Origin: a phage
Sequence record: PZ445515.1
Strand: one strand, 5' to 3'
Length of the DNA: 64,000 nucleotides
In this document: positions 1 to 60,556 of the stretch, in pieces
Position numbering within the stretch: position 1 is the stretch's first letter
How the letters are laid out: the number at the start of each line of letters is the position of its first letter
Notes under the pieces: generated by a model
Told to the model about the DNA's origin: nothing
Seen by the model: only the letters and a program-made list of their open reading frames with translations
Database searches by the model: none
Position numbers and translations under genes: made by a program

Positions 1-747
1 CAGATTATTTGGTAAATTTACTTTAGAACCTTTAACAAATACCAGACGTGAAGCACCCTCCGCCTTAAACGGATCTACTATACCATCAGTAAATAACGGA
101 TCTGCAAAATAATGGAGCTGTACGGAAGAGTAATAAGCTAAGTCGGCAATATCAAAGCCGTACTTTTGTCTACTACTTTCATTGATAGATGTAAATAAGA
201 ATTTGATTTGACCCTGAGTTACTTTAACATTAGATTCTAGTATTAAGTGCATTCGGATACCTGGTTTTAGCCCAGCCGAAGACGATGCATGAGCGATAAA
301 CCCTGCATCAAGAGGAAACATATCCTCACTAATACTATTTAACATCCTAATAATATGTCGAGCCATGCCAACAAGATCAAACTTGTTACAACCACCTGTA
401 TCTACAATACCATCCACGTCCATTGCAATTATATGACTTGGATTAGATACATTAAAGTTGCCCTTCTTACGTCGCACATTATTTTTAGGTGCAAGACATC
501 GACCTCGTACCGCAACGATATGAGGGTCAGACGTTAAACGTCTCATAAGAGGAAGCATTTCTACTAGGGTTTGAGGATCAACTTCATCAATTACATCAAA
601 CTTGAAGGGCATTGAGGCTGGTTTACCTTCAGGATGCTTTGAGGAAAATCTTTTAGCAAAAAGATAGTCTTCTGCTTTAACTTCTCGCCAATTGCCTGTG
701 GCTAAATCGCGATGAAATCCTGCATGACCTTGTAGGATTGAGAACAC
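1..747 (-). CDS. hypothetical protein (partial; 3' end lies beyond window start)
   Basis: Minus-strand frame open across the whole interval; GTG at 747 preceded by AGGAG 7 nt upstream; no family recognised. Confidence 0.45.
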   Translation of the reverse strand, partial: MFSILQGHAGFHRDLATGNWREVKAEDYLFAKRFSSKHPEGKPASMPFKFDVIDEVDPQTLVEMLPLMRRLTSDPHIVAVRGRCLAPKNNVRRKKGNFNVSNPSHIIAMDVDGIVDTGGCNKFDLVGMARHIIRMLNSISEDMFPLDAGFIAHASSSAGLKPGIRMHLILESNVKVTQGQIKFLFTSINESSRQKYGFDIADLAYYSSVQLHYFADPLFTDGIVDPFKAEGASRLVFVKGSKVNLPNNL

Positions 748-1366
748 AACAATACTCCTGTGTTGGAAATAAAATAAGTTTTCTTTAGGACTATTCAGAA
801 AGAATAGAACAACTGTTACTGTCAATTTCTCAACAAATTAATCGCAAATACTGAAGGGGGGTGGCAACTTCCACTTTCACGCTGCGCTGCTGCTTTGCTA
901 TATCGCACAAATCCTTGAGGATGGCCGCTAAGCCAGATTTGCTCACCTAATGCTTCATATACTAGCTCATACTAGATGCAATATAACTTACAGAATCACG
1001 TCTCGGAGTTTTTCACTCCTCCCATCTCACTTCACAACCACCTCATACTAGGTTGCTTCGAGGCCTTACCAGGGTTCCTATGGGACGCAGATCGCTAAGT
1101 ATTCTATTAACTATTTGTTTAAAAACTAACACGTAACAGTTAAAACAACCCTTAATGGGGCAGCCTAACTGTTCCGTATCGCGGATTGTAAACAAGAAAA
1201 ATTAGCAAAATCAATTTTTACTAATGTCTCTCAATTCAATATAAATATTATATCAAGATTTTGGGCATCCTGCAAGTAAAATTTTCCGGATGGTGCTATC
1301 ATTGGTCTTGAGTACGGATAAAACCGAGCCAAAATGACTCGGTAATCAGAGTTCAGCTAATAAAAA

Positions 1367-1759
1367 TCATTCATCATTTAAGCCTGGAACATAAATCCCA
1401 ACACGGTTTAATTGTTCTTTAGCTTCTTTGAGAATATCTGGAGTGTACTCCCAAATATCATCTTCCACCTGTAAAAGATGGGGCGAACAACCATCATCCG
1501 ACACACGACATATGGCCAAACCACGTGGGTGGAACAAAGAGAAATTTAGGGCAACAATTAAACCCATAGCAGACAACTCATTCCAATCCAACTCCCATTC
1601 CCCCGCGTAGCCGGATAGGAAAACACCAACACAGGGATCATCTATTTGCTGCTCCGGAAAAGTGAAGGAGGCTTGTCTTACCCCCAACCAACGTTGTAGC
1701 AGCTTCTCCGCACGTTTCACCAAACTAGGATCAATCTGACGCCAATATACTTGTTCCAT
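1367..1759 (-). CDS. hypothetical protein, paralog of adjacent 1769-2197 gene
   Basis: 130 aa ORF; shares W-x-ELD-x-MGL-x-ALN-x-LF-x-P and C-terminal IPGL motifs with neighbour. Confidence 0.6.
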   Translation of the reverse strand: MEQVYWRQIDPSLVKRAEKLLQRWLGVRQASFTFPEQQIDDPCVGVFLSGYAGEWELDWNELSAMGLIVALNFSLFHPRGLAICRVSDDGCSPHLLQVEDDIWEYTPDILKEAKEQLNRVGIYVPGLNDE

Positions 1760-1768
1760 TCTGCCTCC

Positions 1769-2197
1769 TTAAGCAGTTAAACCTGGGATCATATACCCGA
1801 AACGTCGAAGTTTCTGAATCCCCTCATTTACTTCTTCCGGTGAGTAAGACCAACCATAACGTTCATTAACCTGAAAACCAGGAGATTCACTAGTTTTATA
1901 GTTAACAACAAGGCGATGCTTAGCAGGCATAAACAGCTTATAATTTAACGCAAAAACTAAGCCCATTTCGTCTAACTCTTTCCAGCCCACAATCTCTTCA
2001 AGACCATCCTCTACCTGCACAATTAAACCAATACAGGGGGCCTCATCAATATCATCTTTAAAAGCAAAGGAGATTTCGTTATTCTCACACCATATTTTCA
2101 AGGAGTTAATAGCCTCATTATACAGGCTAGCCGGTAGAGTACGCCAAAAGTTAACCAAAATTGGGTTAGCTTCTTTAGAGAATACATTATTGAACAT
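1769..2197 (-). CDS. hypothetical protein, paralog of adjacent 1367-1759 gene
   Basis: 142 aa ORF; tandem duplicate of upstream gene by shared motifs. Confidence 0.6.
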   Translation of the reverse strand: MFNNVFSKEANPILVNFWRTLPASLYNEAINSLKIWCENNEISFAFKDDIDEAPCIGLIVQVEDGLEEIVGWKELDEMGLVFALNYKLFMPAKHRLVVNYKTSESPGFQVNERYGWSYSPEEVNEGIQKLRRFGYMIPGLTA

Positions 2198-2199
2198 AT

Positions 2200-2706
2200 T
2201 TACACCTTAAATTGTTGTAGGGCTTTACACATTTCAAGATCTGGACTAAATTCTAGCATATAGCTAACAGCCATTAAATCTTGAAGATTTATTCCAGTTC
2301 TACCGTTGACTATAACCGTTGGATACTGGTACATCATAGCACCAGCGTCATCCAGAACACACCAATGTTTGAGCTTATGCTTTTCAACGAAGCGAAGAAC
2401 AGAATTACCCCTAGATAATCCACCCCCAGTAAAATCCGTTGTACCAAGAAAACGATCGATAAGACCTAATCCGGTCATAATCTGAACGTTCTCCATCTCA
2501 TTCCTGACAGAGAACCATGAGGATACTCCAACAATCATTATCGGAGAAGGACGAATAAAGTCCTGAAAAGCCTTGAGAAGCGGTTTGAAAACCCAATCAC
2601 TTCCAAAGAAAATCTTTTCGTCATCAGGTGCATGATGGTGGGAGATGCTCGAATTGAGCACCCCATCAATATCTAGAAAAATAATTGGAGTATTACTTAT
2701 TTCCAT
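2200..2706 (-). CDS. HAD-superfamily phosphatase-like protein
   Basis: 168 aa; HAD motif I FLDIDGVL near N-terminus and VLDDAG motif IV-like. Confidence 0.5.
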   Translation of the reverse strand: MEISNTPIIFLDIDGVLNSSISHHHAPDDEKIFFGSDWVFKPLLKAFQDFIRPSPIMIVGVSSWFSVRNEMENVQIMTGLGLIDRFLGTTDFTGGGLSRGNSVLRFVEKHKLKHWCVLDDAGAMMYQYPTVIVNGRTGINLQDLMAVSYMLEFSPDLEMCKALQQFKV

Positions 2707-2902
2707 TTTTGTTCCTTTCTAAGAACGTATCATACTCAACCGTATCAACATATATAACACCATAGTCATCGGATTTATAGTCCATCTCCCACAGCTCACA
2801 GCGATAGCACCAACTACCATCCGCCCATACAAATATATCATCGGGGTGTGTATATACAGATTTAACTATGGACATATCTGTTTCCCTTGCTTCTCGACAC
2901 AT
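2693..2902 (-). CDS. hypothetical small protein
   Basis: 69 aa ORF bridging HAD and Sir2 genes with short overlaps. Confidence 0.3.
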   Translation of the reverse strand: MCREARETDMSIVKSVYTHPDDIFVWADGSWCYRCELWEMDYKSDDYGVIYVDTVEYDTFLERNKNGNK

Positions 2903-3698
2903 AAGGTCTACCCTCTAAATGAGCTTCTACACGAGCAATAAAATCAGGGTCACTGAAAGCATCTACCGCACCTTTACTCCAGTAAGGGATACCGCGTTCC
3001 TCCAGCTGGTACATCTCACTACGAGTCATACCTTGATAGCCCGGTTCCGCTGCGAGGGCACTATCATAGTAGTTAACAACCATAAGTTTCGCAGCAGTCA
3101 AACTAAGAACAGGAAATAATTCCCAGTAGAAGTTAATTACTTGGTTAGAGCAACCAACCACAATGATCATATCTTGACTGGTAATACCATCAAAAACATT
3201 ATACATTTCTGCGTATGCAGGAGCATGCTCTCCAAAGAAGATTACATTAGGTTTAACCCATTTATAATCATCTGGATCAATAGAATTGTATCCTACATCA
3301 ATAATCCGTTTATTGCTACTATTGTAGCTATCAGCTACAACAACCTCTTTTAAATATCCGTGAATATGCAGAATGTCACTATGTGGAACGCCAGCACGCT
3401 CAATAAGGTCATCAACGTTGGTAGTCAAGTTTACTATTTGACCTGGATATTGTTTATACCATTCACCAATACGCAAATGCGCAAGATTGGGTTCAACAGT
3501 TTTTAGCTCTTCACGACGCTTGTTGTAAAACATATGGGTTTTATGATAAAAATTACCACGAAAGGCATGAATATTACATACTTCTTCTAGATCATAGTCA
3601 TCCCACAATGCTTTACCACTAGCAGTATCAGTACGGAAGGCTCGTACACCACTTTCAACACTCAAACCTGCACCACTAATAATAATTAATCTACGCAT
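2862..3698 (-). CDS. Sir2-family (sirtuin-like) NAD-binding protein
   Basis: 278 aa; N-terminal GAGLSVESGVRAFR matches sirtuin GAGIS-SGIP-FR motif, later HIHG; no Zn CxxC pairs seen. Confidence 0.6.
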   Translation of the reverse strand: MRRLIIISGAGLSVESGVRAFRTDTASGKALWDDYDLEEVCNIHAFRGNFYHKTHMFYNKRREELKTVEPNLAHLRIGEWYKQYPGQIVNLTTNVDDLIERAGVPHSDILHIHGYLKEVVVADSYNSSNKRIIDVGYNSIDPDDYKWVKPNVIFFGEHAPAYAEMYNVFDGITSQDMIIVVGCSNQVINFYWELFPVLSLTAAKLMVVNYYDSALAAEPGYQGMTRSEMYQLEERGIPYWSKGAVDAFSDPDFIARVEAHLEGRPYVSRSKGNRYVHS

Positions 3699-3912
3699 TT
3701 TTCACCTGTTCTCTGAAGTTTTGCCCAATACTGTCTAATAGCTCAGCTAATTCTTTATTGCCTTTCTCCATTAAGGTATTAGCAATAACTTCTAGCATAG
3801 TAGCGCAGGATTCAACACCATCCTTATAGCCAGTTTCCCAGTGCTGCATTAATGCGTTTTCCAAAGCAGCGTTTAAACCCTTATCTGGTAGCATCGGCTT
3901 CGAGAATGCCAT
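3691..3912 (-). CDS. hypothetical protein
   Basis: 73 aa ORF in operon-like array, start/stop overlap with neighbours. Confidence 0.45.
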   Translation of the reverse strand: MAFSKPMLPDKGLNAALENALMQHWETGYKDGVESCATMLEVIANTLMEKGNKELAELLDSIGQNFREQVKNA

Positions 3913-4105
3913 AAAGTTTCTCCTCTAGTTCCATGATACGATTTTCATAAGAGGCACGCAACTTTTCAATTGCCAGCGCACGCACTGTAACCTCATTAGA
4001 ATTAATAGCTAATTGGGCCAGATCTTCCGTTTCCATACGTCCGTTGTAAATTAAGCGATATTTAAGGTGTTTTACATTCTTAGTCATTATTAAACTCCAC
4101 TGCAA
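3881..4105 (-). CDS. hypothetical protein
   Basis: 74 aa ORF, coiled-coil-like, overlaps neighbours. Confidence 0.45.
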   Translation of the reverse strand: MQWSLIMTKNVKHLKYRLIYNGRMETEDLAQLAINSNEVTVRALAIEKLRASYENRIMELEEKLYGILEADATR

Positions 4106-4460
4106 CTGTTTCTAGGTCTTCGTCAGAAAAACTAGAGTATATATCTTTAAGATACTGTTTAATACTCCAAGTAATATCTTCGTACCCATTGGGGCTACGT
4201 TGGTATACTTTTAACACTCTATTATACACAAATTCAAGATTACATTTTACTTCATCTCTGTCTTCATCAAACAAGCAATATGGATTATAAGGTGATACAT
4301 CTAGATTTGTTCCCACCCAATCGCCAATAATGGTAGGGTATGCAACACCCTCTATATGCGAGTAATCACCTGTGGCAGCAAAGACAGCCTCAGCAATATC
4401 ATCCACACCCAGATGGAAACCACCACAAGTAGATTCAACTATATAGGGCTTTAATTCCAT
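4080..4460 (-). CDS. hypothetical protein
   Basis: 126 aa ORF downstream of nrdD; no radical-SAM CxxxCxxC so not NrdG. Confidence 0.5.
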   Translation of the reverse strand: MELKPYIVESTCGGFHLGVDDIAEAVFAATGDYSHIEGVAYPTIIGDWVGTNLDVSPYNPYCLFDEDRDEVKCNLEFVYNRVLKVYQRSPNGYEDITWSIKQYLKDIYSSFSDEDLETVAVEFNND

Positions 4461-4528
4461 ATCTTTCTCCTCTCAAATTTATAAATCTATTATATATAAA
4501 TTTTTGGCTGAAAGCAAATAAAATAAAA

Positions 4529-4553
4529 GCCAGGTCGACTAGCAACCCGGCTG
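4529..4553 (-). terminator. putative rho-independent terminator after nrdD
   Basis: Imperfect hairpin agccagg/cccggct followed on minus strand by T-run. Confidence 0.35.
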
Positions 4554-4559
4554 ATTAGC

Positions 4560-6434
4560 TTATTTAGCTCGAATATCCTGATGTTTCACCCTGCCCATAA
4601 CCTCATGCTGTTTGCCTGGGTTAAATGGACGAGCACCTGGATTTCCAAGATACCCACAAACTCGACGAGTTACTTCAAGAGTTTCGGGGTCGTGATTACC
4701 ACAGATAGGGCACTTAAACCCGTCTTCGGATGCTATTGTTTCACCTAAGAATCCACATTTACCACAAGAATCTACTGGAGTATTAATACCGAAGTAATGA
4801 ACCTTACTAGCAGCATAATTAATAACCCATTCCAGTGCATCTGGGAATCGTTTCATATCCGGTAGTTCTACATAGGAAATACATCCACCAGAAGCAATAG
4901 GAGTAAAGTTAGATTCATAATCAAATTTCACATTGGGAGCAACTTTACGTTCTACATCAAGGTGGTGCGAGTTAGTGTAGTATCCTTTAGACAGAATATC
5001 TTCATGCTCTGGGAAATATTCACGGTCTAGACGACAAAAACGGTCACATAGGGATTCTGATGGTGTAGCATACAGGCTATAACCTAACTTAGTTTCTTCC
5101 TTCTTCTGATCGACTCTATCCCGCATGTACTGCAATACACGCTGAACAAACTTGATGCAGGTCTCGGACATTGTGTCTACATCTTTGCCAAACATGAACT
5201 GTAGCATTTCATGGCAACCAATATACCCTAGAGATACAGAAGCACGGTTATAGAAATGATCGAATACATATTCATCAGGCTCCAAGCGCAGTCCAAAGGC
5301 TCCTGACATATAGAGGATGGGCGCAGCTTTAGCTTGAATGTATTTTAAGCGATCAACTCTCCACTCCAATGCTTTTAACGCTGTATCCACACGTAGCTCA
5401 AGTAAATCAAAGAATAGGTCAATATTTCCTTCAGCTTCGATAGCAATTCTAGGCAAGTTTACAGAAACAACACCTAAGTTATTACGACCGGCAGTTTCAC
5501 CATCTTCTGTAGCAGCTAAGAATGAACGGCAGCCCATAGAAACTTTATAGTCACCAGTAACTTCCACAACCTTATCATAGCTGATATAATCTGGATACAT
5601 ACGTTCAGCAGTACATTTCATAGCTAACTTCTTGATGTCATAATTAACATCTCCTGGTTTCATGTTAACGCCATCACGAAGTACAAATACCAGTTTCGGG
5701 AAGATAGCTGTACGTTTATTGATACCTAAGCCATCCATGCGTACTTTCAGTATTGCTTTCTGTACTAGACGTGCTTCCCAAGAAGTTCCTAGACCAAAAC
5801 CAAAGGTAATAAATGGACTCTGACCATTAGAGTTGAACATGGTATTGATTTCATATTCTAGACCCTGACAGGCATCATAAACTTCTTTTTCAGTCATCTC
5901 CGTAGCCATTACTGATGCTTTGGCCTCATCTTTAGTCCAACGTTTTGCAAACGCATGATTTTTGTCATAGGATTTACGAACATAAGGAGCTAATACTTCA
6001 TCAAGGCGATCCACGGAAGTACCACCATACTGATGGGAGCTAACCTGTGTGATAATCTGAGCTGTAATAGCTGCCGCAGTAGTGATAGAGTTTGGAGTGC
6101 TAATTTCAGCATTACCAACCTTCATACCATTCTTCAACATATCTTCCAGAGCTACCAGACAACAATTAGTCATGCCTAATGCAGCATAATCAGCATCATG
6201 GAAATGAATATCCCCAATCATATGAGCATTTCGAATCTGAATTGGCATTTCTTCTAGAATCAGATACTTACTCAATTCACCTGCAAGCATATCCCTCTGT
6301 GTAGGGAAACGTTCTGAGGGTTTATTGGCATTATTAAACAGCAGCTCTTCATCTGCTGACCCTTCGATAATCTCTTTGCAGTTTCTAATTAACGCCTGCA
6401 TTTCTTTATACTTTAGTTCTTCATTGCGATTCAT
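4560..6434 (-). CDS. nrdD: anaerobic ribonucleoside-triphosphate reductase (class III)
   Basis: 624 aa; C-terminal glycyl-radical motif RVCGYLG, Cys-rich C-terminus, overall NrdD-like. Confidence 0.9.
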   Translation of the reverse strand: MNRNEELKYKEMQALIRNCKEIIEGSADEELLFNNANKPSERFPTQRDMLAGELSKYLILEEMPIQIRNAHMIGDIHFHDADYAALGMTNCCLVALEDMLKNGMKVGNAEISTPNSITTAAAITAQIITQVSSHQYGGTSVDRLDEVLAPYVRKSYDKNHAFAKRWTKDEAKASVMATEMTEKEVYDACQGLEYEINTMFNSNGQSPFITFGFGLGTSWEARLVQKAILKVRMDGLGINKRTAIFPKLVFVLRDGVNMKPGDVNYDIKKLAMKCTAERMYPDYISYDKVVEVTGDYKVSMGCRSFLAATEDGETAGRNNLGVVSVNLPRIAIEAEGNIDLFFDLLELRVDTALKALEWRVDRLKYIQAKAAPILYMSGAFGLRLEPDEYVFDHFYNRASVSLGYIGCHEMLQFMFGKDVDTMSETCIKFVQRVLQYMRDRVDQKKEETKLGYSLYATPSESLCDRFCRLDREYFPEHEDILSKGYYTNSHHLDVERKVAPNVKFDYESNFTPIASGGCISYVELPDMKRFPDALEWVINYAASKVHYFGINTPVDSCGKCGFLGETIASEDGFKCPICGNHDPETLEVTRRVCGYLGNPGARPFNPGKQHEVMGRVKHQDIRAK

Positions 6435-6684
6435 TATACTCTCCTTCTCTAACTAAGACTACTATTATAACTCATTCGAGGGCGGATGTCAACAATATTT
6501 TACTATAAAGTTCTGTAACATGATCTGAGTCAAAAAATTTTATTTGCCAATCTCTATTAAAAATTGTATAATCACGCACTCGTGCACGCGATATAAAATG
6601 ATTATCTAGTATCACACATCTCACGTTAAAAGCAAGCAAATTTTTTATTTAAATGCAATATCATAGGCTTATTTAAAATTGTAG

Positions 6685-6713
6685 TTGCTTTTTACTGTAT
6701 ATATTGGTATAAT
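6685..6713 (+). promoter_or_regulatory. sigma70-type early promoter
   Basis: TTGCTT -35, 17 bp spacer, TATAAT -10. Confidence 0.55.
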
Positions 6714-6786
6714 ATATTTGTAAGTTGATAAACAAGATCTTTTTGTTGATCCTCTGTTAGCGAAGTACACTATAGGAGTGTTATTT

Positions 6787-7539
6787 ATGGGAAAAGCACG
6801 TCAAAAAAGAGAGAACCGCAATGGTTCAAGAAAGCGTGGCAACAAGTATGAGAATAACGTAATTCAGGCTGATTTTTCTAATGATTACGCTAACCCAGTT
6901 GCTAAATCCCTAGTAGGTAAAAACCGCGAGCAAAAATCATATATCAATATGATCAAGAACAACACAGTGACTGTGGGCATCGGTGAGCCAGGTACTGGTA
7001 AAACCTTTATTCCGTCCGTTCTTGCAGCTCAGGAACTCGTAGACATTCACTCAGATATTGAGCAAGTGATCCTCGTACGTCCTAATGAACCTCTAGGTAA
7101 GTCTCTTGGTATGCTTCCTGGTGATCTAGCAGAAAAGCTAGAGCCTTGGTTGGAGCCAATAGCTGATGGTATGAAATGGGCCATCGGCGATCATGCCTAT
7201 AAGGGATATGTCGAACGTCAGAAAATTAAATTTTTGGCTGTCGAACATGCTCGTGGCAGAACTTTCAACAACTCCTATGTAATTGTCGATGAAGCTCAGA
7301 ATATTTCCGTTGAGGCAATGATTTGTCTTCTAACTCGTGTAGGGCAAGACTGCCGTTTAATTATCTGCGGAGATATAGCTCAGAAAGACATTAAAGGTGA
7401 CTCAGGTCTAGCACTCCTTATGGAAGTCTATGAGAAATACGAAAATGCCCCATTCTCAATGATCGAATTGATTGATAACGTTCGTTCTGTTGAGTCTAAA
7501 GCATTCTATGACATCTTTAAAGACATGGGGAAGGTGTAA
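6787..7539 (+). CDS. phoH: PhoH-like ATPase
   Basis: Walker A GEPGTGKTF and DEAQN Walker B; ATG at 6787 after GGAG. Confidence 0.85.
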   Translation: MGKARQKRENRNGSRKRGNKYENNVIQADFSNDYANPVAKSLVGKNREQKSYINMIKNNTVTVGIGEPGTGKTFIPSVLAAQELVDIHSDIEQVILVRPNEPLGKSLGMLPGDLAEKLEPWLEPIADGMKWAIGDHAYKGYVERQKIKFLAVEHARGRTFNNSYVIVDEAQNISVEAMICLLTRVGQDCRLIICGDIAQKDIKGDSGLALLMEVYEKYENAPFSMIELIDNVRSVESKAFYDIFKDMGKV

Positions 7540-7540
7540 T

Positions 7541-7762
7541 ATGGGAAACGTCGTTCATCTGAGCCGTAAAACTAAAATACATCGTACTTCACTGAGTGCT
7601 GCTAATATGATTACACGTAAGGAAGGGGAAGAAAGTCCTAAGACAACCCTAGCGTGGAAAATTGTAACCTCAAATCCAAATAAACCATTCAATTATAACG
7701 AGTTGAGCACCTCCATAGATATTCTATTAAAAGAAGTAGCTAGAACTAAAGTAATTGAATAA
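7541..7762 (+). CDS. hypothetical protein
   Basis: 73 aa ORF, ATG immediately after phoH stop. Confidence 0.45.
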   Translation: MGNVVHLSRKTKIHRTSLSAANMITRKEGEESPKTTLAWKIVTSNPNKPFNYNELSTSIDILLKEVARTKVIE

Positions 7763-7904
7763 GCTAAAAAGCTAGACTGGTAATATACAGGGCCTGGGTA
7801 TGAAAATACTCGGGCCTTTTCTATCAGAAAATTTTATTTGCCTAATGACCGATAATAAAGTAGAATATTCCTTAAATCCTGATAACTATAAAAAGGAAAG
7901 CCAA

Positions 7905-10235
7905 ATGAGCCATCGCATTGAAAAAGTAATTAAACGTGACGGTACTGTAGAAGACTTTGCTCCTGAAAAAATCAATGGTTGGGCAGAGTATGGTTGCAAA
8001 ACAGTTGATGTAAGCTGGTCAGCCATTACTATGGCTGCTCAAAAAACTCTGCCTAAAGGGGTTGTAGATTCCGACACTCTGATGGATGCATTAATTAAAG
8101 CTGCTGAAAGTCTTATTAAAGATAATCCAGCATACGATGTGCCAGCAAAGGAATTACGTCTTGCGCAAATGCGTAAACGCCTTTATGACTCTTTCGAACC
8201 ACCTTCTTTACGCTTCTTCCATGACCACATGGTTAGCGTAGGTGCATGGGAAGACATGAGTGCATGGATTACCGATGAGCAATTTGAAGCTCTGAATCAG
8301 GTTATCGACCATGATCGTGACCGTCTTTTTACTAGTGGTGGGCTGAAGCAGTTCTTTGATAAGTATTCCCGTCGTAATATAGCCACTGGTGAAATTTATG
8401 AAACCCCGCAATTCGCCTACATGGGTATGGCAATGGCGATGTTATCTCAACCTAACTGGACAATTCTAGATGCAATCGACCTCTACAACGCAATGTCGCT
8501 CCACAAAATCAACGTTCCTACGCCGCCACTGGTTGGTCTGCGCTCTAGTGACCGTGGATTTGCTAGTTGCTGTCTCGTGGATTCCACTGACACGTTGGAT
8601 TCAATCGACACCGCCGAGCACATCGTCTTCAAAATGGTCGCAGCCAGAGCGGGAATCGGGTATCATCTTGAAAGCCGATCAATTGCTGATCCGGTGCGAA
8701 ATGGGGCATTCCCGCATTCCGGAAAACTGCCGTATTATCGACACATTGACCGCTCAGTAAAGGCCAATACTCAGCAAACTCGTGGTGGTTCTGCTACAGT
8801 GTCTTATCCATACTTCGACCCTGAAATCATTCAATTGATGCAGGTTAAGCAACAACGTGCTACAGATGAGAATAAAATCGATAAGATGGATTATTCTCTG
8901 AGCTTTAACAATCTTTTGTTAAAACGTTATCTTAAAAACGAAGATATTACGCTAATGTCATACTTCTATGCTCCAGAAGTTCATGAAGCGTTTTATAGTG
9001 ATGACGAGGCTAAATTTGAAGAAATCTACGTGGCAGCGGAGAAACGTGTGGCATCTCTTACAAAGATCGACCACGAAGGAAAAACAGTTCCTGCAGCTCC
9101 TAAAGTCTCTGCAAAAGAAATCCTAGATACTTGGCTACGTATCCGAATGGAAACAGGACGTATGTATGCTCACCACATTGGGGAATCTAATCGTCACGGT
9201 AACTTCCTTGATCCGATCCGTATGACAAACCTTTGTGTTGAAATTACTCAGCCTACACGCCCGTTCCATCACATTACAGAGCTGTACAAGACAAAAGAGC
9301 AGCTTGATCAAATGAAGCCGGAGGATATTGGTGAAGTATCTCTGTGTAACTTAGGTGGTGTTGTACTTGGACGCATGGAATCTCTGGCTGAGTGGGAAAA
9401 AACTTGCTACATCCTTCTGAAATTCGTTGATACAATTATTGAAATTCAGGATTATCCGTTCCCAACTATGGAATATACGGCTAAGAAACGTCGTAATGTC
9501 GGTATTGGCCTAATGAACGCAGCAGGTGCAATGGCAGCAGAAGGTCTGGCTTACGAAGGTATTGAAGCTCGTAACTGGATCCACCGTGAGGCTGAAAAAC
9601 TGTCTTACTTCCTGCATAAAGCCTCTGTACGCCTGGCTAAGGAACAGGGTGCATGTGAGTGGTTTGATCGTACTAAACCATCTAAAGGAATTCTGGTAAT
9701 CGACACGTACAAGAAAACTGTTGATGAGCTGGTATCCGTAGGTCTAGAAATGGACTGGGAGTCTCTGCGTGCAGATATTCTGAAATATGGTATGCGTAAC
9801 TCTGTTCTGACTGCTCAGATGCCGGGAGAAAGTTCTTCTGTTCTGTTAGGTGTTACTAACTCTATCGAACCACCTCGTAAGATTGTATCTATCAAGGGTA
9901 GTGCAGTAAATAAAGTAATTGCAATTGCTCCAGGTGCAACCGATTGGGAAACGTTAATGAGCTATAAATTGGCTTATGATGTAGATCGTATCGAGTGGAT
10001 CAAATGGGTAGCAACTATGCAGAAATTCTTCAGCCAGTCTGTTAGTACTAATATGTACTACGACTACACCAAGTTTGAGAATGAAATTATTCCTGGCCCA
10101 GTAGTAGTTCGTGATTTCATGACTGCTGTTAAATACGGGTGGAAAACTTGGTATTATGCTAACTTCAACACCGCAAATGGTGGTGGTGCTGGAGAAGAAG
10201 CAGCTGGTTGTGCATCAGGCGGTTGTACTATTTAA
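7905..10235 (+). CDS. nrdA: ribonucleotide reductase class I large subunit
   Basis: 776 aa from ATG 7905; N-terminal ATP-cone (VIKRDGTVEDF), C-terminal CxxGGC tail. Confidence 0.9.
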   Translation: MSHRIEKVIKRDGTVEDFAPEKINGWAEYGCKTVDVSWSAITMAAQKTLPKGVVDSDTLMDALIKAAESLIKDNPAYDVPAKELRLAQMRKRLYDSFEPPSLRFFHDHMVSVGAWEDMSAWITDEQFEALNQVIDHDRDRLFTSGGLKQFFDKYSRRNIATGEIYETPQFAYMGMAMAMLSQPNWTILDAIDLYNAMSLHKINVPTPPLVGLRSSDRGFASCCLVDSTDTLDSIDTAEHIVFKMVAARAGIGYHLESRSIADPVRNGAFPHSGKLPYYRHIDRSVKANTQQTRGGSATVSYPYFDPEIIQLMQVKQQRATDENKIDKMDYSLSFNNLLLKRYLKNEDITLMSYFYAPEVHEAFYSDDEAKFEEIYVAAEKRVASLTKIDHEGKTVPAAPKVSAKEILDTWLRIRMETGRMYAHHIGESNRHGNFLDPIRMTNLCVEITQPTRPFHHITELYKTKEQLDQMKPEDIGEVSLCNLGGVVLGRMESLAEWEKTCYILLKFVDTIIEIQDYPFPTMEYTAKKRRNVGIGLMNAAGAMAAEGLAYEGIEARNWIHREAEKLSYFLHKASVRLAKEQGACEWFDRTKPSKGILVIDTYKKTVDELVSVGLEMDWESLRADILKYGMRNSVLTAQMPGESSSVLLGVTNSIEPPRKIVSIKGSAVNKVIAIAPGATDWETLMSYKLAYDVDRIEWIKWVATMQKFFSQSVSTNMYYDYTKFENEIIPGPVVVRDFMTAVKYGWKTWYYANFNTANGGGAGEEAAGCASGGCTI

Positions 10236-10281: not shown

Positions 10282-10310
10282 TTGCTAATCGCTACCAGAT
10301 TTGCTATAAT
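10282..10310 (+). promoter_or_regulatory. T5-type early promoter
   Basis: TTGCTA -35, 17 bp, TATAAT -10. Confidence 0.6.
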
Positions 10311-10341
10311 ATTCCTGAAATAGTGAGAAAGAGGAAAATCA

Positions 10342-47807: not shown

Positions 47808-48421
47808 TGTTTACACAACAGCCTATTCAAGTAGTACCAGACCATGAACTGAACACATGGGATTACAGCTTTAAAGATTTAACTGCTACTGTACAATTCA
47901 AATCTATGAAGCTAACATTTGCACACACCGACCTTAAAGCCTGTAAAGATCTTGAGAGTAAGCTCGAAGATGCTCGTAAGATTTTTGGCACGGCTCGCAT
48001 CCCGGCTGATAACCTGATTAATGCACTAATAGACGCTGGTTATAAACTCGTGAAGACTGAGGTGAACCGTCCTAGTGCTCCAGTAACTATTCGAGATTCA
48101 TGGCCGTCCGGACCAATCGCAATGCTGAATAACTCCGATAAAAGATTAATGTCGGATATGCACAATATTCCTTGTGGGGGTGTGGTAAGTAGTACGCAGT
48201 CATATAAGTTTGTGGAAGATTACGGCCCATCTGTACAGCTAAAACATACTCAAGAAGCTTTTGAATCTGATATGCGAAGCGTAGCACCTGCGGATGCTGG
48301 AGTTTCTAGGAGTTCTGTTTGTACTATTCATTTTAATAATCCTGGTAAACATGGAAGTTTAGAGGATGCTATTATGGAGGCGTTGGGAGCTGCTATTAAT
48401 GAAGATAAGAGAGGTAGCTAA
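47807..48421 (+). CDS. hypothetical protein
   Basis: 204 aa ORF. Confidence 0.55.
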   Translation: MFTQQPIQVVPDHELNTWDYSFKDLTATVQFKSMKLTFAHTDLKACKDLESKLEDARKIFGTARIPADNLINALIDAGYKLVKTEVNRPSAPVTIRDSWPSGPIAMLNNSDKRLMSDMHNIPCGGVVSSTQSYKFVEDYGPSVQLKHTQEAFESDMRSVAPADAGVSRSSVCTIHFNNPGKHGSLEDAIMEALGAAINEDKRGS

Positions 48422-49383: not shown

Positions 49384-49919
49384 GATCCTGCATGTCTCGG
49401 TGCACAATACCTGTACCGAGACTCAAATACAAACTCTCGTTGACAGATAGCTAAATGTATGTTATCATAACTCTATGAGTTAATAGAATTAACCATTTAG
49501 AGTTGCCACACAGAAGGTGTGGTGGTTCAGTAATTTAAAATTACTAACTTGTAGCGGAGGATACGGAGCGACAGGACAAGTTAATAAGTAATTTAATATA
49601 AATTGCTAGAAACATCACGAGACCTTCTGGCGGGGGCAAAGCTCTATATGAGAACCCTGGGGGATCTTATATTTAAAATAAAAGTAAAACTTTTGACCAC
49701 ATAATTTACATTCAAGATGATACACCTGTTGCCGCTCATCTGCTAGGATGGCACAACACTTTCCTAGAAACTCCAGAGTTCTCACGAAATACTCACTCTT
49801 TCTAGGGCGGTTCTCCTAAGTTTCTAGGAACATATACTAGGCGGTTTAATACAGGGCGGTTATGGGGAGGGCGGTTATTTCTAGGAGACATTTTTTGAAA
49901 ACACATTTCCAGAAATTAC

Positions 49920-50520
49920 TGTCGGATTTGCACATTGTGTTTCTAGAAATTTATGGTCGGATTTGCACAATTGCCTAAGTTTTTAGGAACATATAATCTC
50001 TTGAAAATGGCAGCATTATTTCGGGCCGAAGGCCCATGATTGCCTGAGTTTTTAGAGCCACAGAAACTTTCACTTGTCAAGCTATTTTGCCCCATTTAGC
50101 TAATAAGATTTTACTTTATCTGCACTAATCTCAAATTAACCCAAATCTTCTCAACTCTTCCCCAAAATCCCCGCAAATCAGGTGCTACGCACCAAACATG
50201 CGCCCCTCTCGCAGTTCCCTCAAATTTTTCTCGATCTCTCAACTTCTCCCCAAACTCTTACAATCACACACTCTCCAATCGAAGTCACAAAAATCTTGTC
50301 GGATTCGCACAAATAAACCCATGTCGGATTTGCATATATTCTAGTTAATTCCACAGGATTGATGCGCAGCATCGGATTGCTGGAGTTTTTAGGAAAATTC
50401 ATTGTCGGATCCGCACATTATAAAAATTTTTCGGGTCGGATTTGCACACTACCAAAAATTGTCGGATTCGCACATACACGCCCACGCGTAATCCATGGGG
50501 GCAAATGTCGGATTTGCACA
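49920..50520. repeat. array of 8 direct copies of 15-bp motif TGTCGGATTTGCACA (injection-stop-signal-like repeats)
   Basis: Copies at 49920, 49955, 50297, 50322, 50403, 50434, 50460, 50506 with 1-2 substitutions; no ORF. Confidence 0.8.
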
Positions 50521-50559
50521 AAAGCGCAGGGCAATTGCCCTGCTTGCCTGAATACGAAT

Positions 50560-50750
50560 GATAATGAGAATCATTCTCATTTAAAAAGCGGAATGTGAAT
50601 GATAATAATTCGCATTTAAGAATGGAAGTGAGAATTATTCAGGAAGTGAAACGATTCTCATTTAAAAAGTGGAATGATTATTAGTTAGATAGTGAAATGC
50701 GAATGATACTGATTCGTATTTAAGAATGGAAGTGAGAAACACTATTATTT
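50560..50750. repeat. tandem approx. 90-bp repeat pair with palindromic cores
   Basis: Units alternate gagaatcattctcatttaaaaagYggaatg and gaatgata...ttcgYatttaagaatggaagtgagaa; extra copy near 51059. Confidence 0.7.
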
Positions 50751-50753
50751 AAG

Positions 50754-50846
50754 TTATCCACAGACTTATCAACAGCACGATTTGACTTGACAAAATCCTA
50801 GCCATTTTGAGGCGTTATCAACAGACTTATCAACAGCTTATCCTAC
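50754..50846. promoter_or_regulatory. DnaA-box cluster I
   Basis: Perfect TTATCCACA at 50754 plus TTATCAACA x3 and TTATCCTAC within 90 bp. Confidence 0.6.
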
Positions 50847-51414
50847 TGTATAAATATACAGTATTCCTATGCAGTGAATAATTCTAATATACAGCTAAAA
50901 CGCTCTCAAACGCATTCTAACGCGTTTAATTTTGTTGGGGATACTAAAACACGGGTAAAATTGGAGGAGGCTTAGAAATTAGTTAGCGAGCTAACGATCA
51001 CACAAGGCGACACGTAACACCCTAATCATTAGCAGGCTAACCATCGCGGGCGCGGTTAAATGAGAATCATTCTCATTTGAAAATTGGGGGCACTCCCTGA
51101 TAGTTGCGCCCCGTGATTATTAGTCTGGTAGTCGATGCGTGATTTTTTCCTCCTCCCCGTAGGAATCCACCAAATACTGATAATAACCATCGTGATCATA
51201 AATCACTTTATCATATTCGCCACGCTCGACCGCTTGCCGATTCTCCGGCGTATCTGGCACGTAAAAACATCAACCATTGTACTGATCTTGGTTACAACTA
51301 TTTTATTACTCATAATAACTCCCTAGTAAATATATTTTTGCCAATAGTGGCGAATGTTATCGCCACCAGCGGAATCATTAGCGGCCTTACTATTACCAAC
51401 GAAAATATATAATC

Positions 51415-54318: not shown

Positions 54319-54600
54319 TTGTTCGGCCTCCCTCGTTAATCGGTGAGTGAATGATATAGATATTTGTTCACTAGGGGCAAGAAAAAAGAAAATGTTTTTT
54401 ATTCCTTGCCTAGCGCCTAGTTTTATGCTAACCGCGCAGCGGTGCAATAAAGAGCAAAACACGGCGAAGCCACCAGGGCGACGGGTGAAGGCTTTACTTT
54501 AATATTACCCCACCGCATTTAGTTCGTTAGAAAGCGTTTTAGGCCGCTTGAAATTGATTGCAGTTGTTAACACTACCTTTTTACCCTGTATATTTATACA

Positions 54601-55020
54601 GTAGGATAACCTGTGGATAAGTCTGTGTAAAAGTCCTTATATCGCCGCCTATCGTGTCAAATTATTTTGTGCTGTGGAAAACATTGTGGATAACTTAAAT
54701 GATAGTGGTTCTCACTTAGACCGATGATTTCTTATAGTTATTATTTCTCATTAATTTATATGTATATTATATATCATGAAATAGTTAGTTAGCTAATGAG
54801 ATTTTCCGTGATTAATAGTCTGCTAATAATTTAAGCCGTTACAATCCACCAGCATGATTATCATCCTAGCAATTATTAGCCTGCTATCTTTCTGATGCAT
54901 ACTAACAAATAAAAGTCAATTAATTTATTTTATAAAATAAGTAGTTATCCACTGGAAAATAAAAGTCAAGTGGATAACTAGGAAAATTTCATTTTTGCTT
55001 TTGGGGATAAGTTATCAACA
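54601..55020. promoter_or_regulatory. DnaA-box cluster II in divergent intergenic region
   Basis: TGTGGATAA at 54612 and 54685, TTATCCAC 54945, GTGGATAAC 54970, TTATCAACA 55012; very AT-rich. Confidence 0.55.
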
Positions 55021-56377: not shown

Positions 56378-56785
56378 ATGACTAACGCAAAAACCGCAAA
56401 ATTCGCATGGAATGAAGAAAACACTCAGAAAGCTGTTACCATGTACCAGCAGTTAATCAACGAAAACGGTTTAGATTTTGCAAATAGCGACGGCCTGAAA
56501 GAGATTGCAAAAGCAGTAGGCGCGGCCTCCCCCGTATCCGTTCGGTCAAAATTGACCAGTGCAAAAGCCTATCAAAAAAGCGATAAGCCGCGTAAAGTTG
56601 GCGGCGGTAGCTCTGTGCGTAAAGCTCACTATGTGCGAGTAATTGCAAAACACGCTATCGATTCCGGTATTATCAAAGACGCCGATGATCTGGCAAGCCT
56701 TGAAAGTGCTAAACTGGAAACGCTGGACGCGGTGGCGCAACTGTTAGGCGTTGCCGATGAAGTAAAACAAGCCGCAGGCGAATAA
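56378..56785 (+). CDS. hypothetical protein
   Basis: 135 aa ORF with RBS AGGAG. Confidence 0.55.
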   Translation: MTNAKTAKFAWNEENTQKAVTMYQQLINENGLDFANSDGLKEIAKAVGAASPVSVRSKLTSAKAYQKSDKPRKVGGGSSVRKAHYVRVIAKHAIDSGIIKDADDLASLESAKLETLDAVAQLLGVADEVKQAAGE

Positions 56786-60446: not shown

Positions 60447-60556
60447 AGTTACCCTGCTAATAGTAACGGGGGTGGCGGTTAGCAGACTAAGTATTCTCCC
60501 CCAACCCACTGGACACACCTCCATGTGTAATCTTATGAAATTTGGCAAAAGTCAAA

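What the first reader, a model, noticed from the sequence alone, without database searches (positions are those of the whole stretch)
49920..50520. Array of eight 15-bp TGTCGGATTTGCACA repeats with interleaved TTTCTAGGAA and GGGCGGTT motifs
Eight near-identical direct copies lie within 600 bp of ORF-free DNA. At least seven TTT(C/T)TAG(G/A)A copies lie within 49768-50400 and four GGGCGGTT copies within 49805-49876; a perfect 18-bp palindrome gcagggcaattgccctgc sits at 50527-50544. This density of short iterons is not explained by coding or promoters. It resembles the repeat-rich injection stop signal described for T5 first-step-transfer DNA, or iterons bound by a host or phage protein.
Basis: partly seen in the sequence, partly recalled or inferred. 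Interest (0 to 1): 0.65.

Follow-up and report, generated by a model that had tools for sequence, protein, structure and literature searches.

The report
T5 DRD iterons near injection stop
The eight 15-bp repeats are real, but they are the already-described 'DRD' direct repeats of the non-coding injection-stop / terminal-repeat-boundary region of phage T5, conserved across most of the T5 family and almost certainly protein-binding sites whose function has never been shown.

Summary
The window is a T5-like phage, 100% identical to Escherichia phage T5_ev212 and about 89% identical to T5 here, read in reverse of the T5 map. The eight co-oriented TGTCGGATTTGCACA copies exist as described; 0.11 are expected by chance. 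They are the published 'DRD' repeats of T5 'Repeat Region 3'. In the T5 reference record, the six inner copies lie inside the feature annotated 'injection stop signal'. The two outer copies lie beyond the terminal repeat.

New here:
- The core GTGCAAATCCGA is kept, always co-oriented, in Klebsiella, Pantoea, Pectobacterium and Vibrio T5-like phages whose spacers are unalignable.
- Its two clusters bracket the right end of the terminal repeat.
- It is missing from the Proteus and Providencia relatives.
- A basic motif of the pre-early DNA-binding protein A2 (RKxH[Y/F]xR) is invariant wherever DRDs occur and is broken in the two DRD-less lineages.

Best guess, at low confidence: these are A2 (A1-A2) binding iterons that act just behind the stop point to restart second-step DNA transfer. 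The main rival is a pac-like terminase site.

The sequence feature is already known and the function is unproven. Interest is modest.

The parts
49920..49969 (+). Outer DRD pair (49920-49934 and 49955-49969), in unique DNA just outside the terminal repeat
   Evidence: Homologous to T5 10305-10354. The 35-bp spacing is conserved in all Tequintavirus and Epseptimavirus loci examined.
50297..50520 (+). Inner DRD cluster of six copies (50297, 50322, 50403, 50434, 50460, 50506), inside the terminal repeat and therefore present at both genome ends
   Evidence: Homologous to T5 9752-9975. In records that hold the right terminal repeat, the cluster lies about 245-470 bp from the right genome end (loci L026, L033, L041, L043, L044).
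50039..50061 (+). Right boundary of the direct terminal repeat, placed by homology at 50054|50055. It lies inside one copy of the 23-nt repeat ATTGCCTRAGTTTTTAGRR.
   Evidence: T5 10219|10220 maps here. The LTR ends annotated in BF23, MM-1 and Elw fall at the same homologous position. The boundary motif CTGTGGCTC|TAAAAAC is conserved in Klebsiella Kpn9-P3 and Pantoea AAS21 and is similar in My1 and PR1. The only blastn match to the Klebsiella phages is this 75-bp piece.
49805..49877 (+). GGGCGGTT / GGCGGTTW cluster: three exact copies and one variant
   Evidence: GGGCGGTTAT is present in two copies at the same relative place in the Klebsiella and Pantoea phages. A single co-oriented GGCGGTTA lies about 40 bp inside the left genome end at 60474, conserved as AGTCTnnnWACCGCC in T5, My1, phi3 and PR1.
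49762..50394 (.). TTTYTAGRA motifs: five on + and two on -
   Evidence: These are part of the 23-nt family at 49811, 49970, 50039 and 50376 (family D5).
50523..50543 (-). Homologue of the T5 7.9% major single-strand interruption (50523|50524), with GCGC and the 18-bp palindrome 50526-50543. On the - strand this also looks like a terminator.
   Evidence: The T5 misc_feature at 9748..9749 maps here. Palindrome.
50551..50740 (.). AT-rich AATGAGAATCATTCTCATTT repeats, the DRE/DRC families of T5. The estimated FST shear point falls here, at about 50575.
   Evidence: families D2, D3, D7. The shear estimate of 9618 in AY587007 was converted using the 80-bp difference in LTR length. That conversion is my inference.
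50753..50837 (+). Two pairs of DnaA / DnaA-like boxes (50754, 50766, 50815, 50827), corresponding to IRD'-spacer-IRC' of T5. This is the published candidate for the stop signal proper. The partner set lies at 54612-54693 on the - strand.
   Evidence: Davison 10.1101/866236.
49440..49468 (+). Near-consensus sigma-70 promoter-like site (TTGACA-17-TATCAT, with TG) pointing into the repeat region
   Evidence: A promoter-like site is positionally conserved in Klebsiella, My1 and phi3; Pantoea AAS21 shows a similar TTGACG...TAAGAT site that I read by eye in its sequence.
56378..56785 (+). A2, the pre-early DNA-binding protein required for second-step transfer. This is the candidate DRD-binding protein, by inference.
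48150..48164 (+). Isolated DRD-like copy (TGTCGGATATGCACA) inside the T5.019-like ORF
   Evidence: It is conserved in 25 loci, but it lies inside a conserved coding motif (..D[L/M]HNVPCGG..), so the conservation is explained by coding.

Best explanation
The array is the T5 'DRD' iteron family: eight co-oriented binding sites (core GTGCAAATCCGA on the T5 map strand) for one sequence-specific DNA-binding protein.

In the order of DNA entry the sites lie immediately behind the injection stop point, which is the DnaA-box / DRE segment. They are therefore the first DNA that has to move when transfer resumes.

Proposed mechanism: A2 is made from the first-step DNA. It binds successive DRDs as they become accessible at the cytoplasmic face. 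This either rectifies inward diffusion or targets the membrane-bound A1-A2 complex to this DNA. Either way it releases the pause and starts second-step transfer. On this view the DRDs are a restart or hand-over signal rather than the stop itself.

Shown: the repeats, their homology to T5, their conservation, orientation and position, and the A2 sequence pattern. Inferred: that A2 binds them, and everything about how the restart works.
For: 1. The repeats are real and non-random.

2. There is selection on the motif itself. Among 28 distinct Tequintavirus and Epseptimavirus sequences, the 13-nt core columns are 51% invariant against 23% for the spacers. In Klebsiella Kpn9-P3, Pantoea AAS21, Pectobacterium My1 and Vibrio phi3 or Cody the spacers cannot be aligned, yet the core TCGGATTTGCAC is kept. 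Eleven of the 13 core positions GTCGGATTTGCAC carry at least 1.3 bits of information; the first G carries 1.02 bits.

3. Every copy is in the same orientation in every genome. One inner site moves by exactly 10 bp between lineages, with spacings 25/81 versus 35/71. That is what a helical-face constraint would give.

4. Position. The published shear estimate for the end of first-step DNA maps about 55 bp before the first DRD in the direction of entry.

5. A2 is a purified DNA-binding dimer that is needed, with A1, only for second-step transfer (Davison 10.1101/866236). It is one of the few pre-early proteins conserved across the family.

6. Co-variation. The A2 motif (V/L)RK(A/E)H(Y/F)(V/L)R is invariant in all DRD-bearing lineages sampled and near-invariant in 26 database homologues. 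It is altered differently in the two DRD-less lineages: Providencia PR1 has LQKITLIR and Proteus Stubb has IRKAHVVF. PR1 A2 is only 28% identical to this phage's A2, although A1 is 46%, dmp 48% and TerS 52% identical.

7. The A2 AlphaFold model (pLDDT 84) is all-helical with an N-terminal three-helix, HTH-like unit. The best fold matches are HTH DNA-binding domains, though none is significant.
Against: - No binding data exist.
- The co-variation rests on two DRD-less lineages that share derived TerS residues and may be one clade, so there may be effectively one event.
- Stubb A2 as a whole is not unusually diverged: A2 43% against A1 44%.
- If the pause really is at 7.9%, the DRDs would still be outside the cytoplasm and out of reach of A2.
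- The model does not explain why the two clusters bracket the terminal-repeat boundary in every DRD-bearing lineage whose boundary could be placed (T5-like phages, My1, and, by the boundary motif, Klebsiella Kpn9-P3 and Pantoea AAS21). It also does not explain why a conserved promoter points into the array.
- A 12-nt recognition sequence unchanged between phages whose A2 proteins are only 36-43% identical is unusual for a phage protein and would fit a conserved host protein better.
- Fold matches for A2 all have E > 0.6, and the local Pfam copy has no family for it.
Confidence: 0.33

Rival explanations
1. The array is a pac-like packaging or terminus-formation site. The two DRD clusters would be recognition repeats for the terminase, or an accessory factor, that bracket the cut which creates the right genome end. 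That end is the one packaged first. The arrangement would resemble the hexamer repeats that flank the P1 pac cut, SPP1 pacL/pacR or lambda cosB.
For: The right boundary of the terminal repeat falls in the gap between the outer and inner clusters in T5-like phages: 85 bp from the outer pair and 242 bp from the inner six. The same is true in My1 and, judged by the conserved boundary motif, in Klebsiella Kpn9-P3 and Pantoea AAS21.

The boundary sequence is the most conserved piece of the region between genera. The left boundary (60515|60516) sits in only about 165 bp of non-coding DNA without DRDs. That asymmetry is expected if packaging initiates at the right boundary.

Packaging starting at the right end follows from the left end being injected first, which is established for T5, plus the general last-in, first-out rule. 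That step is my inference. A conserved strong promoter reading toward the cut recalls the transcription dependence of T3/T7 concatemer processing, a point I hold from memory.
Against: The putative HTH recognition helix of TerS is not conserved among DRD-bearing lineages: T5-like [11 protein letters not shown], My1 KEVDCRLMLQK and phi3 PVAEIDAQLKK. The DRD core is nevertheless identical in them. The DRD-less PR1 and Stubb keep long terminal repeats and a TerS 50-52% identical to this one, closer than the Vibrio TerS proteins of DRD-bearing phages. No terminase binding or pac mapping exists for T5 in the papers I could search. The bracketing is inherited, so it is not four independent observations.
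Confidence: 0.25
2. The array is part of the injection stop itself, read by a pre-existing host protein. One version treats the DRDs as low-affinity DnaA boxes that extend the DnaA-box cluster of Davison's model and capture the incoming DNA at the membrane.
For: The stop needs no new protein synthesis. The inner six copies lie in the annotated iss. An almost unchanged motif across phages of Escherichia, Klebsiella, Pantoea, Pectobacterium and Vibrio fits a slowly evolving host partner. The 3' nine bases ATTTGCACA match the DnaA consensus TTWTNCACA at 8 of 9 positions, and one Vibrio phi3 copy (TGTGCAAAA) matches at 9 of 9. Eight DnaA-type boxes lie nearby. An array of co-oriented sites would raise the chance of capturing fast-moving DNA, which is my inference.
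Against: The invariant positions TCGG lie outside the 9-mer. The 9-mer's own critical positions vary: T/C at box position 4, a mismatch at position 1, and T/A/G at position 9 across lineages. Copies here score only 6-8 of 9. The Proteus and Providencia relatives keep the DnaA-box pairs but have no DRDs. Two or more copies lie beyond the terminal repeat. I could not match the motif to any host-factor consensus from memory (Fis, IHF, CRP, FadR, MatP, XerC and others).
Confidence: 0.15
3. The array is a set of replication-origin iterons bound by the phage's UL9-like 'origin-binding' helicase, working with the adjacent DnaA boxes, the AT-rich repeats and an incoming promoter.
For: The architecture looks like an origin: co-oriented iterons, an AT-rich repeat block, DnaA boxes and a strong promoter reading inward. 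T5-like phages encode a 929-aa protein that scores above the Pfam threshold for Herpes_ori_bp. The DRD variant TTCGCAC equals the core of the herpes UL9 box GTTCGCAC, which I recall from memory.
Against: The Pfam and PDB matches cover only the helicase core, residues 388-533. The C-terminal part has no detectable match to UL9. That C-terminal part is 61% identical in a DRD-less Proteus phage but only 39-45% identical in DRD-bearing Vibrio phages. The Stubb genome has no DRD pair anywhere. T5 origins were mapped by electron microscopy near the middle of the genome (cited). The spacing is irregular: 25, 26, 31, 35 and 46 bp.
Confidence: 0.07
4. The motif acts at the RNA level. The conserved promoter at 49440-49468 would transcribe the array, and the repeated UCGGAUUUGCAC would be a protein- or RNA-binding module.
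For: A near-consensus promoter sits at the same place in this window and in three other lineages scanned for promoter-like sites (Klebsiella Kpn9-P3, My1, phi3); AAS21 shows a similar TTGACG...TAAGAT site that I read by eye in its sequence. All repeats are co-oriented with it. The first ~300 nt downstream fold unusually well (z = -4.4, -4.3 and -3.3 in three lineages).
Against: No Rfam family matches. In My1 a strong terminator stops the transcript before most copies. The repeats straddle the terminal-repeat boundary, so the inner cluster at the right genome end has no such promoter. The motif has no stable hairpin of its own.
Confidence: 0.05

Closest known systems
DRD direct repeats of phage T5 'Repeat Region 3', the injection-stop (iss) region. 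Sources: Heusterspreute et al. 1987 and Wang et al. 2005, as cited by Davison 2020 (bioRxiv 10.1101/866236).
   Same: The DNA is homologous, 88.6% identical and collinear. The motif, orientation, order and spacings are the same: 35 / about 343 / 25 / 81 / 31 / 26 / 46 bp. The neighbours are the same: the nick site with its palindrome, the DRE repeats, the DnaA-box inverted repeats and the terminal-repeat end.
   Different: The differences are only point changes within copies. T5 has an extra degenerate copy (CATCGGATTTGCACA at 10477), where this phage has a deletion. The function is as unknown in T5 as it is here.
Terminase recognition repeats that flank a packaging cut: the P1 pac hexamers, SPP1 pacL/pacR and the lambda cosB R sites
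   Same: Two clusters of short co-oriented repeats bracket a sequence-defined genome end. They lie in the largest non-coding region of the genome.
   Different: No terminase binding has been shown. The TerS HTH does not co-vary with the motif. DRD-less relatives still make long terminal repeats. The cut generates a 10-kb direct terminal repeat, not cos or headful ends.
Short repeat arrays (SRL/SRR) next to the terminal repeats of phage T7
   Same: They are arrays of short direct repeats immediately adjacent to an exact direct terminal repeat, and their function is unresolved. This comparison is from memory.
   Different: The T7 repeats are 7-mers on the inner side of each repeat. The sequences are unrelated and no homology was tested.
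Plasmid or phage origin iterons with DnaA boxes, for example P1 oriR and pSC101
   Same: There are multiple co-oriented repeats of 13-15 bp near DnaA boxes and an AT-rich block.
   Different: There is no adjacent initiator gene. The neighbouring T5.018 and T5.019-like ORFs are not conserved in other DRD-bearing lineages. The spacing is irregular, and T5 origins were mapped elsewhere.
DnaA boxes (TTWTNCACA)
   Same: The 3' part of the repeat matches the consensus at 6-8 of 9 positions, and true DnaA boxes lie 230 bp away.
   Different: The most conserved bases (TCGG) lie outside the box, and key box positions vary.

Membership tests
T5 Repeat Region 3 / iss region, DRD repeat family | Sequence homology to T5 about 9.7-10.5 kb | tested here: met
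   The blastn match is 88.6% identical over 1680 bp and the global alignment is collinear. The window is 100% identical to Escherichia phage T5_ev212.
T5 Repeat Region 3 / iss region, DRD repeat family | Location in the large non-coding gap between convergent pre-early and early genes, spanning the right end of the left terminal repeat | tested here: met
   The flanking ORFs are orthologous. The boundary was mapped by homology to 50054|50055.
T5 Repeat Region 3 / iss region, DRD repeat family | Eight to nine co-oriented copies of the same 15-mer, in the same order | tested here: met
T5 Repeat Region 3 / iss region, DRD repeat family | Adjacent paired DnaA boxes in IRD'-spacer-IRC', with an inverted partner about 4 kb away | tested here: met
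   The boxes lie at 50754, 50766, 50815 and 50827 on the + strand and at 54612-54685 on the - strand. The blast match of T5 9412-9543 to window 54586-54717 shows the inverted partner.
T5 Repeat Region 3 / iss region, DRD repeat family | DNA transfer actually pauses here | not testable with these tools
   This needs first-step-transfer mapping. The literature gives only about 7.9% for T5.
Terminase pac/cos recognition repeats | The repeats flank the mapped genome terminus | tested here: met
   This holds by homology to the annotated termini of T5, BF23, MM-1, Elw and My1. It was not measured for this phage.
Terminase pac/cos recognition repeats | The DNA-binding region of the small terminase subunit tracks the motif | tested here: not met
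   The TerS HTH helix differs among DRD-bearing lineages. DRD-less PR1 and Stubb have a TerS closer to this one than the TerS of DRD-bearing Vibrio phages.
Terminase pac/cos recognition repeats | The terminase binds or cleaves in a repeat-dependent way | not testable with these tools
   No data were found.
Replication-origin iterons | A cognate initiator is encoded next to the iterons, or demonstrably tracks them | tested here: not met
   The neighbouring ORFs are not conserved in other DRD-bearing lineages. The C-terminus of the UL9-like helicase is conserved in a DRD-less Proteus phage.
Replication-origin iterons | Regular helical phasing of the repeats, about 11 or 22 bp | tested here: not met
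   The spacings are 25, 26, 31, 35, 46, 81 and 342 bp.
DnaA boxes | Match to TTWTNCACA, with conservation concentrated in that 9-mer | tested here: not met
   Copies match at 6-8 of 9 positions. The invariant TCGG lies outside the 9-mer, and box positions 1, 4 and 9 vary.
Known RNA families | Match to an Rfam covariance model or a tRNA | tested here: not met
   There were no Rfam hits at E <= 1 and no tRNAs.

The most novel reading that the evidence does not exclude
The DRD array may be the long-missing cis-acting partner of the A1-A2 second-step-transfer machinery. On this reading A2 reads GTGCAAATCCGA iterons placed just behind the stop point and uses them to restart genome entry. The alternative novel reading is that the same iterons are the pac-like site that defines the right end of the 10-kb terminal repeat. 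Either would give the first defined protein-DNA pair for a step of the T5 two-step injection and packaging cycle that has been unexplained since 1968.
Probability: 0.3. Interest if true: 0.6.

Novelty: already known. Interest (0 to 1): 0.3.

Why it matters
How T5 stops after injecting 8% of its genome, and how A1 and A2 restart transfer, is still open. Papers from 2023 to 2026 say so.

The repeats themselves are not new. Three observations made here turn 'a bewildering array of repeats' into a small set of cheap binding and mutagenesis experiments:
- the same 12-13 nt core is conserved across three subfamilies of Demerecviridae and further genera not placed in a subfamily (Klebsiella Kpn9-P3, Pantoea AAS21);
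- its two clusters bracket the terminal-repeat end;
- it is lost in the Proteus and Providencia lineages together with a change in a basic motif of A2.

The boundary mapping is also of practical use for annotating T5-like genomes that are assembled with a collapsed repeat, as this one is.

Tried and rejected
- Rfam and tRNA scans of 49.0-51.8 kb found nothing.
- Pfam on A2, A1 and the T5.018 and T5.019-like ORFs found no family in the local copy. PHROGs only repeats 'DNA binding protein' and 'terminase small subunit'.
- The neighbouring T5.018 and T5.019-like proteins were considered as the iteron binder and rejected, because they are absent from the Klebsiella, My1, Vibrio, PR1 and Stubb loci.
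- TerS co-variation gave no support.
- The UL9-box lead (TTCGCAC) failed. Homology is limited to the helicase core, and the C-terminus is conserved in a DRD-less phage.
- I scanned 185k bacterial genomes for two DRD cores 10-40 bp apart. None of the listed hits was in an enterobacterium. The scan was uninformative. The same scan of viral contigs returned T5-like genomes plus isolated pairs that look like noise.
- Literal searches of the paper library for the motif found no paper.
- Foldseek on the A2 model gave no significant match.
- The PhageTerm-annotated repeat end of Proteus phage Stubb does not lie between any repeat clusters, so I did not use it. The Seafire repeat end falls at a position homologous to the nick site rather than the T5 boundary. 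The cott162 end falls between the boundary and the inner cluster, and the Kenya-K20 end falls inside the inner cluster between the last two copies. I treated these three as unreliable.
- Comparison of the motif, from memory, with host-factor consensus sequences (CRP, LexA, IHF, Fis, FadR, MatP, XerC arm, MarA, sigma-54, sigma-28, tRNA T-arm) gave nothing convincing.
Full report
**What the window is.** The 2 kb around the finding is 100% identical to Escherichia phage T5_ev212 (Tequintavirus) and matches 459 T5-like phage records. It aligns collinearly with T5 itself (NC_005859 9.0-11.0 kb) at 88.6% identity, on the opposite strand, so the window runs in reverse of the T5 map. The ORFs on the + strand up to 49383 are the first early genes (T5.018 and T5.019-like). 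The - strand ORFs from about 51.1 kb are the last pre-early genes. A2 (56378-56785), A1 (57164-58834) and dmp (59658-60392) follow. The assembly has a single, collapsed terminal repeat. T5 position 1 maps to window 60515, and the DNA beyond it is the right end of the unique region: llp, the receptor-binding protein and the small terminase subunit.

**The observation.** Eight copies of TGTCGGATTTGCACA, with 0-2 mismatches and all on the + strand, start at 49920, 49955, 50297, 50322, 50403, 50434, 50460 and 50506. Shuffles of the whole window give 0.11 such matches. The accessory motifs are also real and clustered:
- Seven of the window's 14 TTTYTAGRA matches fall in 49762-50394.
- There are three GGGCGGTT and one AGGCGGTT in 49805-49877.
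- The 18-bp palindrome is at 50526-50543.
- The 1.7 kb from 49384 to about 51120 has no credible ORF, no tRNA and no Rfam match.

**What it is.** T5 carries the same repeats at 9752, 9798, 9824, 9855, 9936, 9961, 10305, 10340 and 10477. The reference record annotates 1..10219 as the left terminal repeat, 9140..10149 as 'injection stop signal (iss)' and 9748..9749 as a major single-strand interruption. Davison's preprint (10.1101/866236) describes the same DNA as 'Repeat Region 3', containing 'nine copies of direct repeat DRD', palindromes, DRE/DRC repeats and the inverted repeat IRD'-spacer-IRC' with paired DnaA boxes. It notes that the region overruns the terminal repeat by 270 bp. He places the probable stop signal at IRD'-spacer-IRC' plus DRE, just left of the shear point at about 9618 in AY587007 coordinates. 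He explicitly leaves the other repeats without a role. The finding is therefore a rediscovery of a published sequence feature. Later papers still call the mechanism unknown.

In window coordinates:
- DnaA-type boxes lie at 50754, 50766, 50815 and 50827, with the inverted partner set at 54612-54685.
- The AT-rich DRE/DRC repeats lie at 50551-50740.
- The shear estimate falls at about 50575. This is my conversion, using the 80-bp difference in repeat length between the two T5 sequences.
- The nick homologue is at 50523|50524, three nucleotides after the last DRD.

**Anatomy relative to the genome ends.** The T5 repeat boundary 10219|10220 maps to 50055|50054. The independently annotated repeat ends of BF23 (determined with PhageTerm according to PMC10644984), MM-1 and Elw fall at exactly the same homologous position. 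The boundary lies in the 342-bp gap of the array. Two DRDs are in unique DNA, 85-135 bp outside it. Six are inside the repeat, 242-465 bp from it, and are therefore also present about 245-470 bp from the right physical end of the virion DNA. The cut falls inside one copy of a 23-nt repeat, ATTGCCTRAGTTTTTA|GRR. The left boundary has no DRD. The Seafire repeat end falls at a position homologous to the nick site rather than the T5 boundary, while the cott162 end lies between the boundary and the inner cluster and the Kenya-K20 end lies inside the inner cluster; all three look unreliable.

**Conservation.** In every Tequintavirus and Epseptimavirus locus examined, the array has 8-10 copies, one orientation and conserved spacings. 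One inner copy sits either 25/81 or 35/71 bp from its neighbours, a shift of exactly 10 bp. Across 28 distinct sequences the 13-nt core columns are 51% invariant against 23% elsewhere.

More telling are the distant relatives:
- Klebsiella phage vB_Kpn9-P3 shares only a 75-bp blastn match with this region, and that match is the boundary motif. It nevertheless has five outer and five inner copies of TCGGATTTGCACA.
- Pantoea phage AAS21 has 3 outer and 5 inner copies around GAGTTTTTAGAGCCACAAG.
- Pectobacterium phage My1 has 6 copies inside and 3-4 copies outside its annotated repeat end.
- Vibrio phage phi3 has eight GTGCAAAACCGA copies at its repeat end, and Vibrio Thalassavirus phages have 1-3.

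Pooling 65 copies, positions TCGG-TT-GCAC are invariant or nearly so, and the flanks carry no information. By contrast, Providencia phage PR1 and Proteus phage Stubb have the large non-coding region, the DnaA-box pairs, A1, A2, dmp and TerS, but no DRD.

**Who reads the motif?**
- The adjacent early proteins are not conserved in other DRD-bearing lineages.
- DnaA is unlikely. The copies match TTWTNCACA at only 6-8 of 9 positions, the invariant TCGG lies outside the 9-mer, and box positions 1, 4 and 9 vary.
- The small terminase subunit has an N-terminal HTH-like segment, but its putative recognition helix differs completely among DRD-bearing lineages. The DRD-less phages have a TerS closer to this one (50-52%) than the Vibrio phages do.
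- A2 behaves differently. Its most conserved stretch, VRSKL...KPRKVGGGSS(V/L)RKAHYVR, includes the motif RKxH(Y/F)xR. That motif is invariant in T5-like, AAS21, My1, phi3, Cody and pVp-1-like proteins and nearly so in 26 database homologues. It reads LQKITLIR in PR1 and IRKAHVVF in Stubb.
- PR1 A2 is only 28% identical to this phage's A2, although A1 is 46% and dmp 48% identical. Stubb A2 is not globally aberrant.
- The A2 model (pLDDT 84) is all-helical with a three-helix N-terminal unit. Fold matches are HTH domains but are not significant.

This is a modest, single-clade correlation. It is the only discriminating signal I found.

**Mechanism.** I commit, at about one chance in three, to the DRDs being A2 (A1-A2) binding iterons that act immediately behind the pause to restart second-step transfer. 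This could work by rectifying inward movement of DNA or by directing the membrane-bound A1-A2 complex to this DNA. The latter would also fit Davison's suggestion that A2 gives A1 a specific target to the right of the stop, in both repeats.

The main rival, at about one in four, is a pac-like role. The clusters bracket the sequence-conserved cut that makes the right genome end, and that end is the one packaged first, because the left end is injected first. The arrangement would resemble P1 pac or SPP1 pacL/pacR.

Less likely readings are a host-factor stop element, origin iterons read by the UL9-like helicase, and an RNA-level role. For the origin idea, the only sequence homology is in the helicase core and the C-terminus is conserved in a DRD-less phage. 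For the RNA idea.

None of these can be settled from sequence. The decisive experiments are footprinting with A2, TerS and DnaA, plus DRD mutagenesis with separate read-outs for transfer and packaging.

**Verdict.** The feature is already known in T5, and this phage is a near-identical relative. Its function remains an open and now somewhat better-posed question.

Noticed in passing
window 49440-49800: A near-consensus sigma-70 promoter (TTGACA-17-TATCAT with TG) is followed by about 330 nt that are ~100% identical to T5, although the flanking genes are only ~90% identical. A promoter-like site sits at the same place in Klebsiella, Pectobacterium and Vibrio relatives (scanned) and in Pantoea AAS21 (read by eye). 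The downstream RNA folds unusually well: z = -4.4 here, -4.3 in Klebsiella and -3.3 in Pantoea. There is no Rfam match. This may be an unannotated structured ncRNA, or transcription directed into the repeat array.
   Followed up: partly
window 50054|50055 and 60515|60516: By homology to T5, BF23, MM-1 and Elw these are the right and left ends of the ~10.5-kb direct terminal repeat. The source assembly has the repeat collapsed, so the window runs straight from dmp into the right end of the unique region.
   Followed up: yes
window 60471-60481; compare 49805-49877: GGCGGTTA lies about 40 bp inside the left genome end, in the same orientation as the GGGCGGTT cluster outside the right boundary. 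The left-end element AGTCTnnnWACCGCC is conserved in T5, My1, Vibrio phi3 and the DRD-less PR1. It may be an end-recognition element common to both cuts.
   Followed up: partly
window 50523-50543: This is the homologue of the T5 7.9% major nick (AAAA|GCGC), directly followed by the 18-bp palindrome. The terminal-repeat end annotated from PhageTerm for Salmonella phage Seafire falls at this position rather than at the T5 boundary, which suggests that nicks can mislead terminus prediction.
   Followed up: partly
window 50551-50740 and 51056-51083: There are five copies of an AT-rich, internally palindromic 25-mer, AATGAGAATCATTCTCATTTAAAAA, and a 67-nt duplication. These are the T5 DRE/DRC families. 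One copy sits 470 bp away in inverted orientation.
   Followed up: no
window 50754-50835 (+) and 54612-54693 (-): Eight DnaA-type boxes occur as pairs separated by 3 bp, in two inverted-repeat blocks 3.8 kb apart. This matches Davison's description for T5-like phages. The distal block has four consensus boxes.
   Followed up: yes
window 48150-48164; L254 1904 and 3322: Isolated, co-oriented DRD-like copies lie inside early genes. The one in the T5.019-like ORF is conserved in 25 loci but sits in a conserved peptide..D(L/M)HNVPCGG.., so coding explains it. Pantoea AAS21 has two others.
   Followed up: partly
L016 (Providencia PR1), L058/L067 (Proteus Stubb): T5-like phages of Morganellaceae lack the DRD motif entirely, although they keep the large non-coding region, the DnaA-box pairs, A1, A2 and TerS. 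PR1 instead has a tandem 8-bp repeat (ACGTCTAG-like, seven or more copies) and a 3-copy CGGGGARCAGGRGA family around its repeat end.
   Followed up: partly
window 1-606 (-), continuing outside the window: This is the N-terminus of a 929-aa helicase annotated elsewhere as 'replication origin binding protein'. It matches Pfam Herpes_ori_bp at 29 bits over the helicase core only. The DRD variant TTCGCAC resembles the herpes UL9 box, but no homology of the DNA-binding part could be shown.
   Followed up: partly
window 50023-50035: The hairpin GGGCCGAAGGCCC, which has a UUCG loop on the T5 map strand, lies about 20 bp outside the terminal-repeat boundary. It is conserved in T5, BF23, MM-1 and Elw and in similar form in Pantoea AAS21.
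   Followed up: no
loci L006, L009, L003 versus window: One inner DRD sits exactly 10 bp further along in BF23, MM-1 and Kenya-K20 (spacings 35/71 instead of 25/81). The sum, and therefore the helical face relative to its neighbours, is preserved.
   Followed up: no
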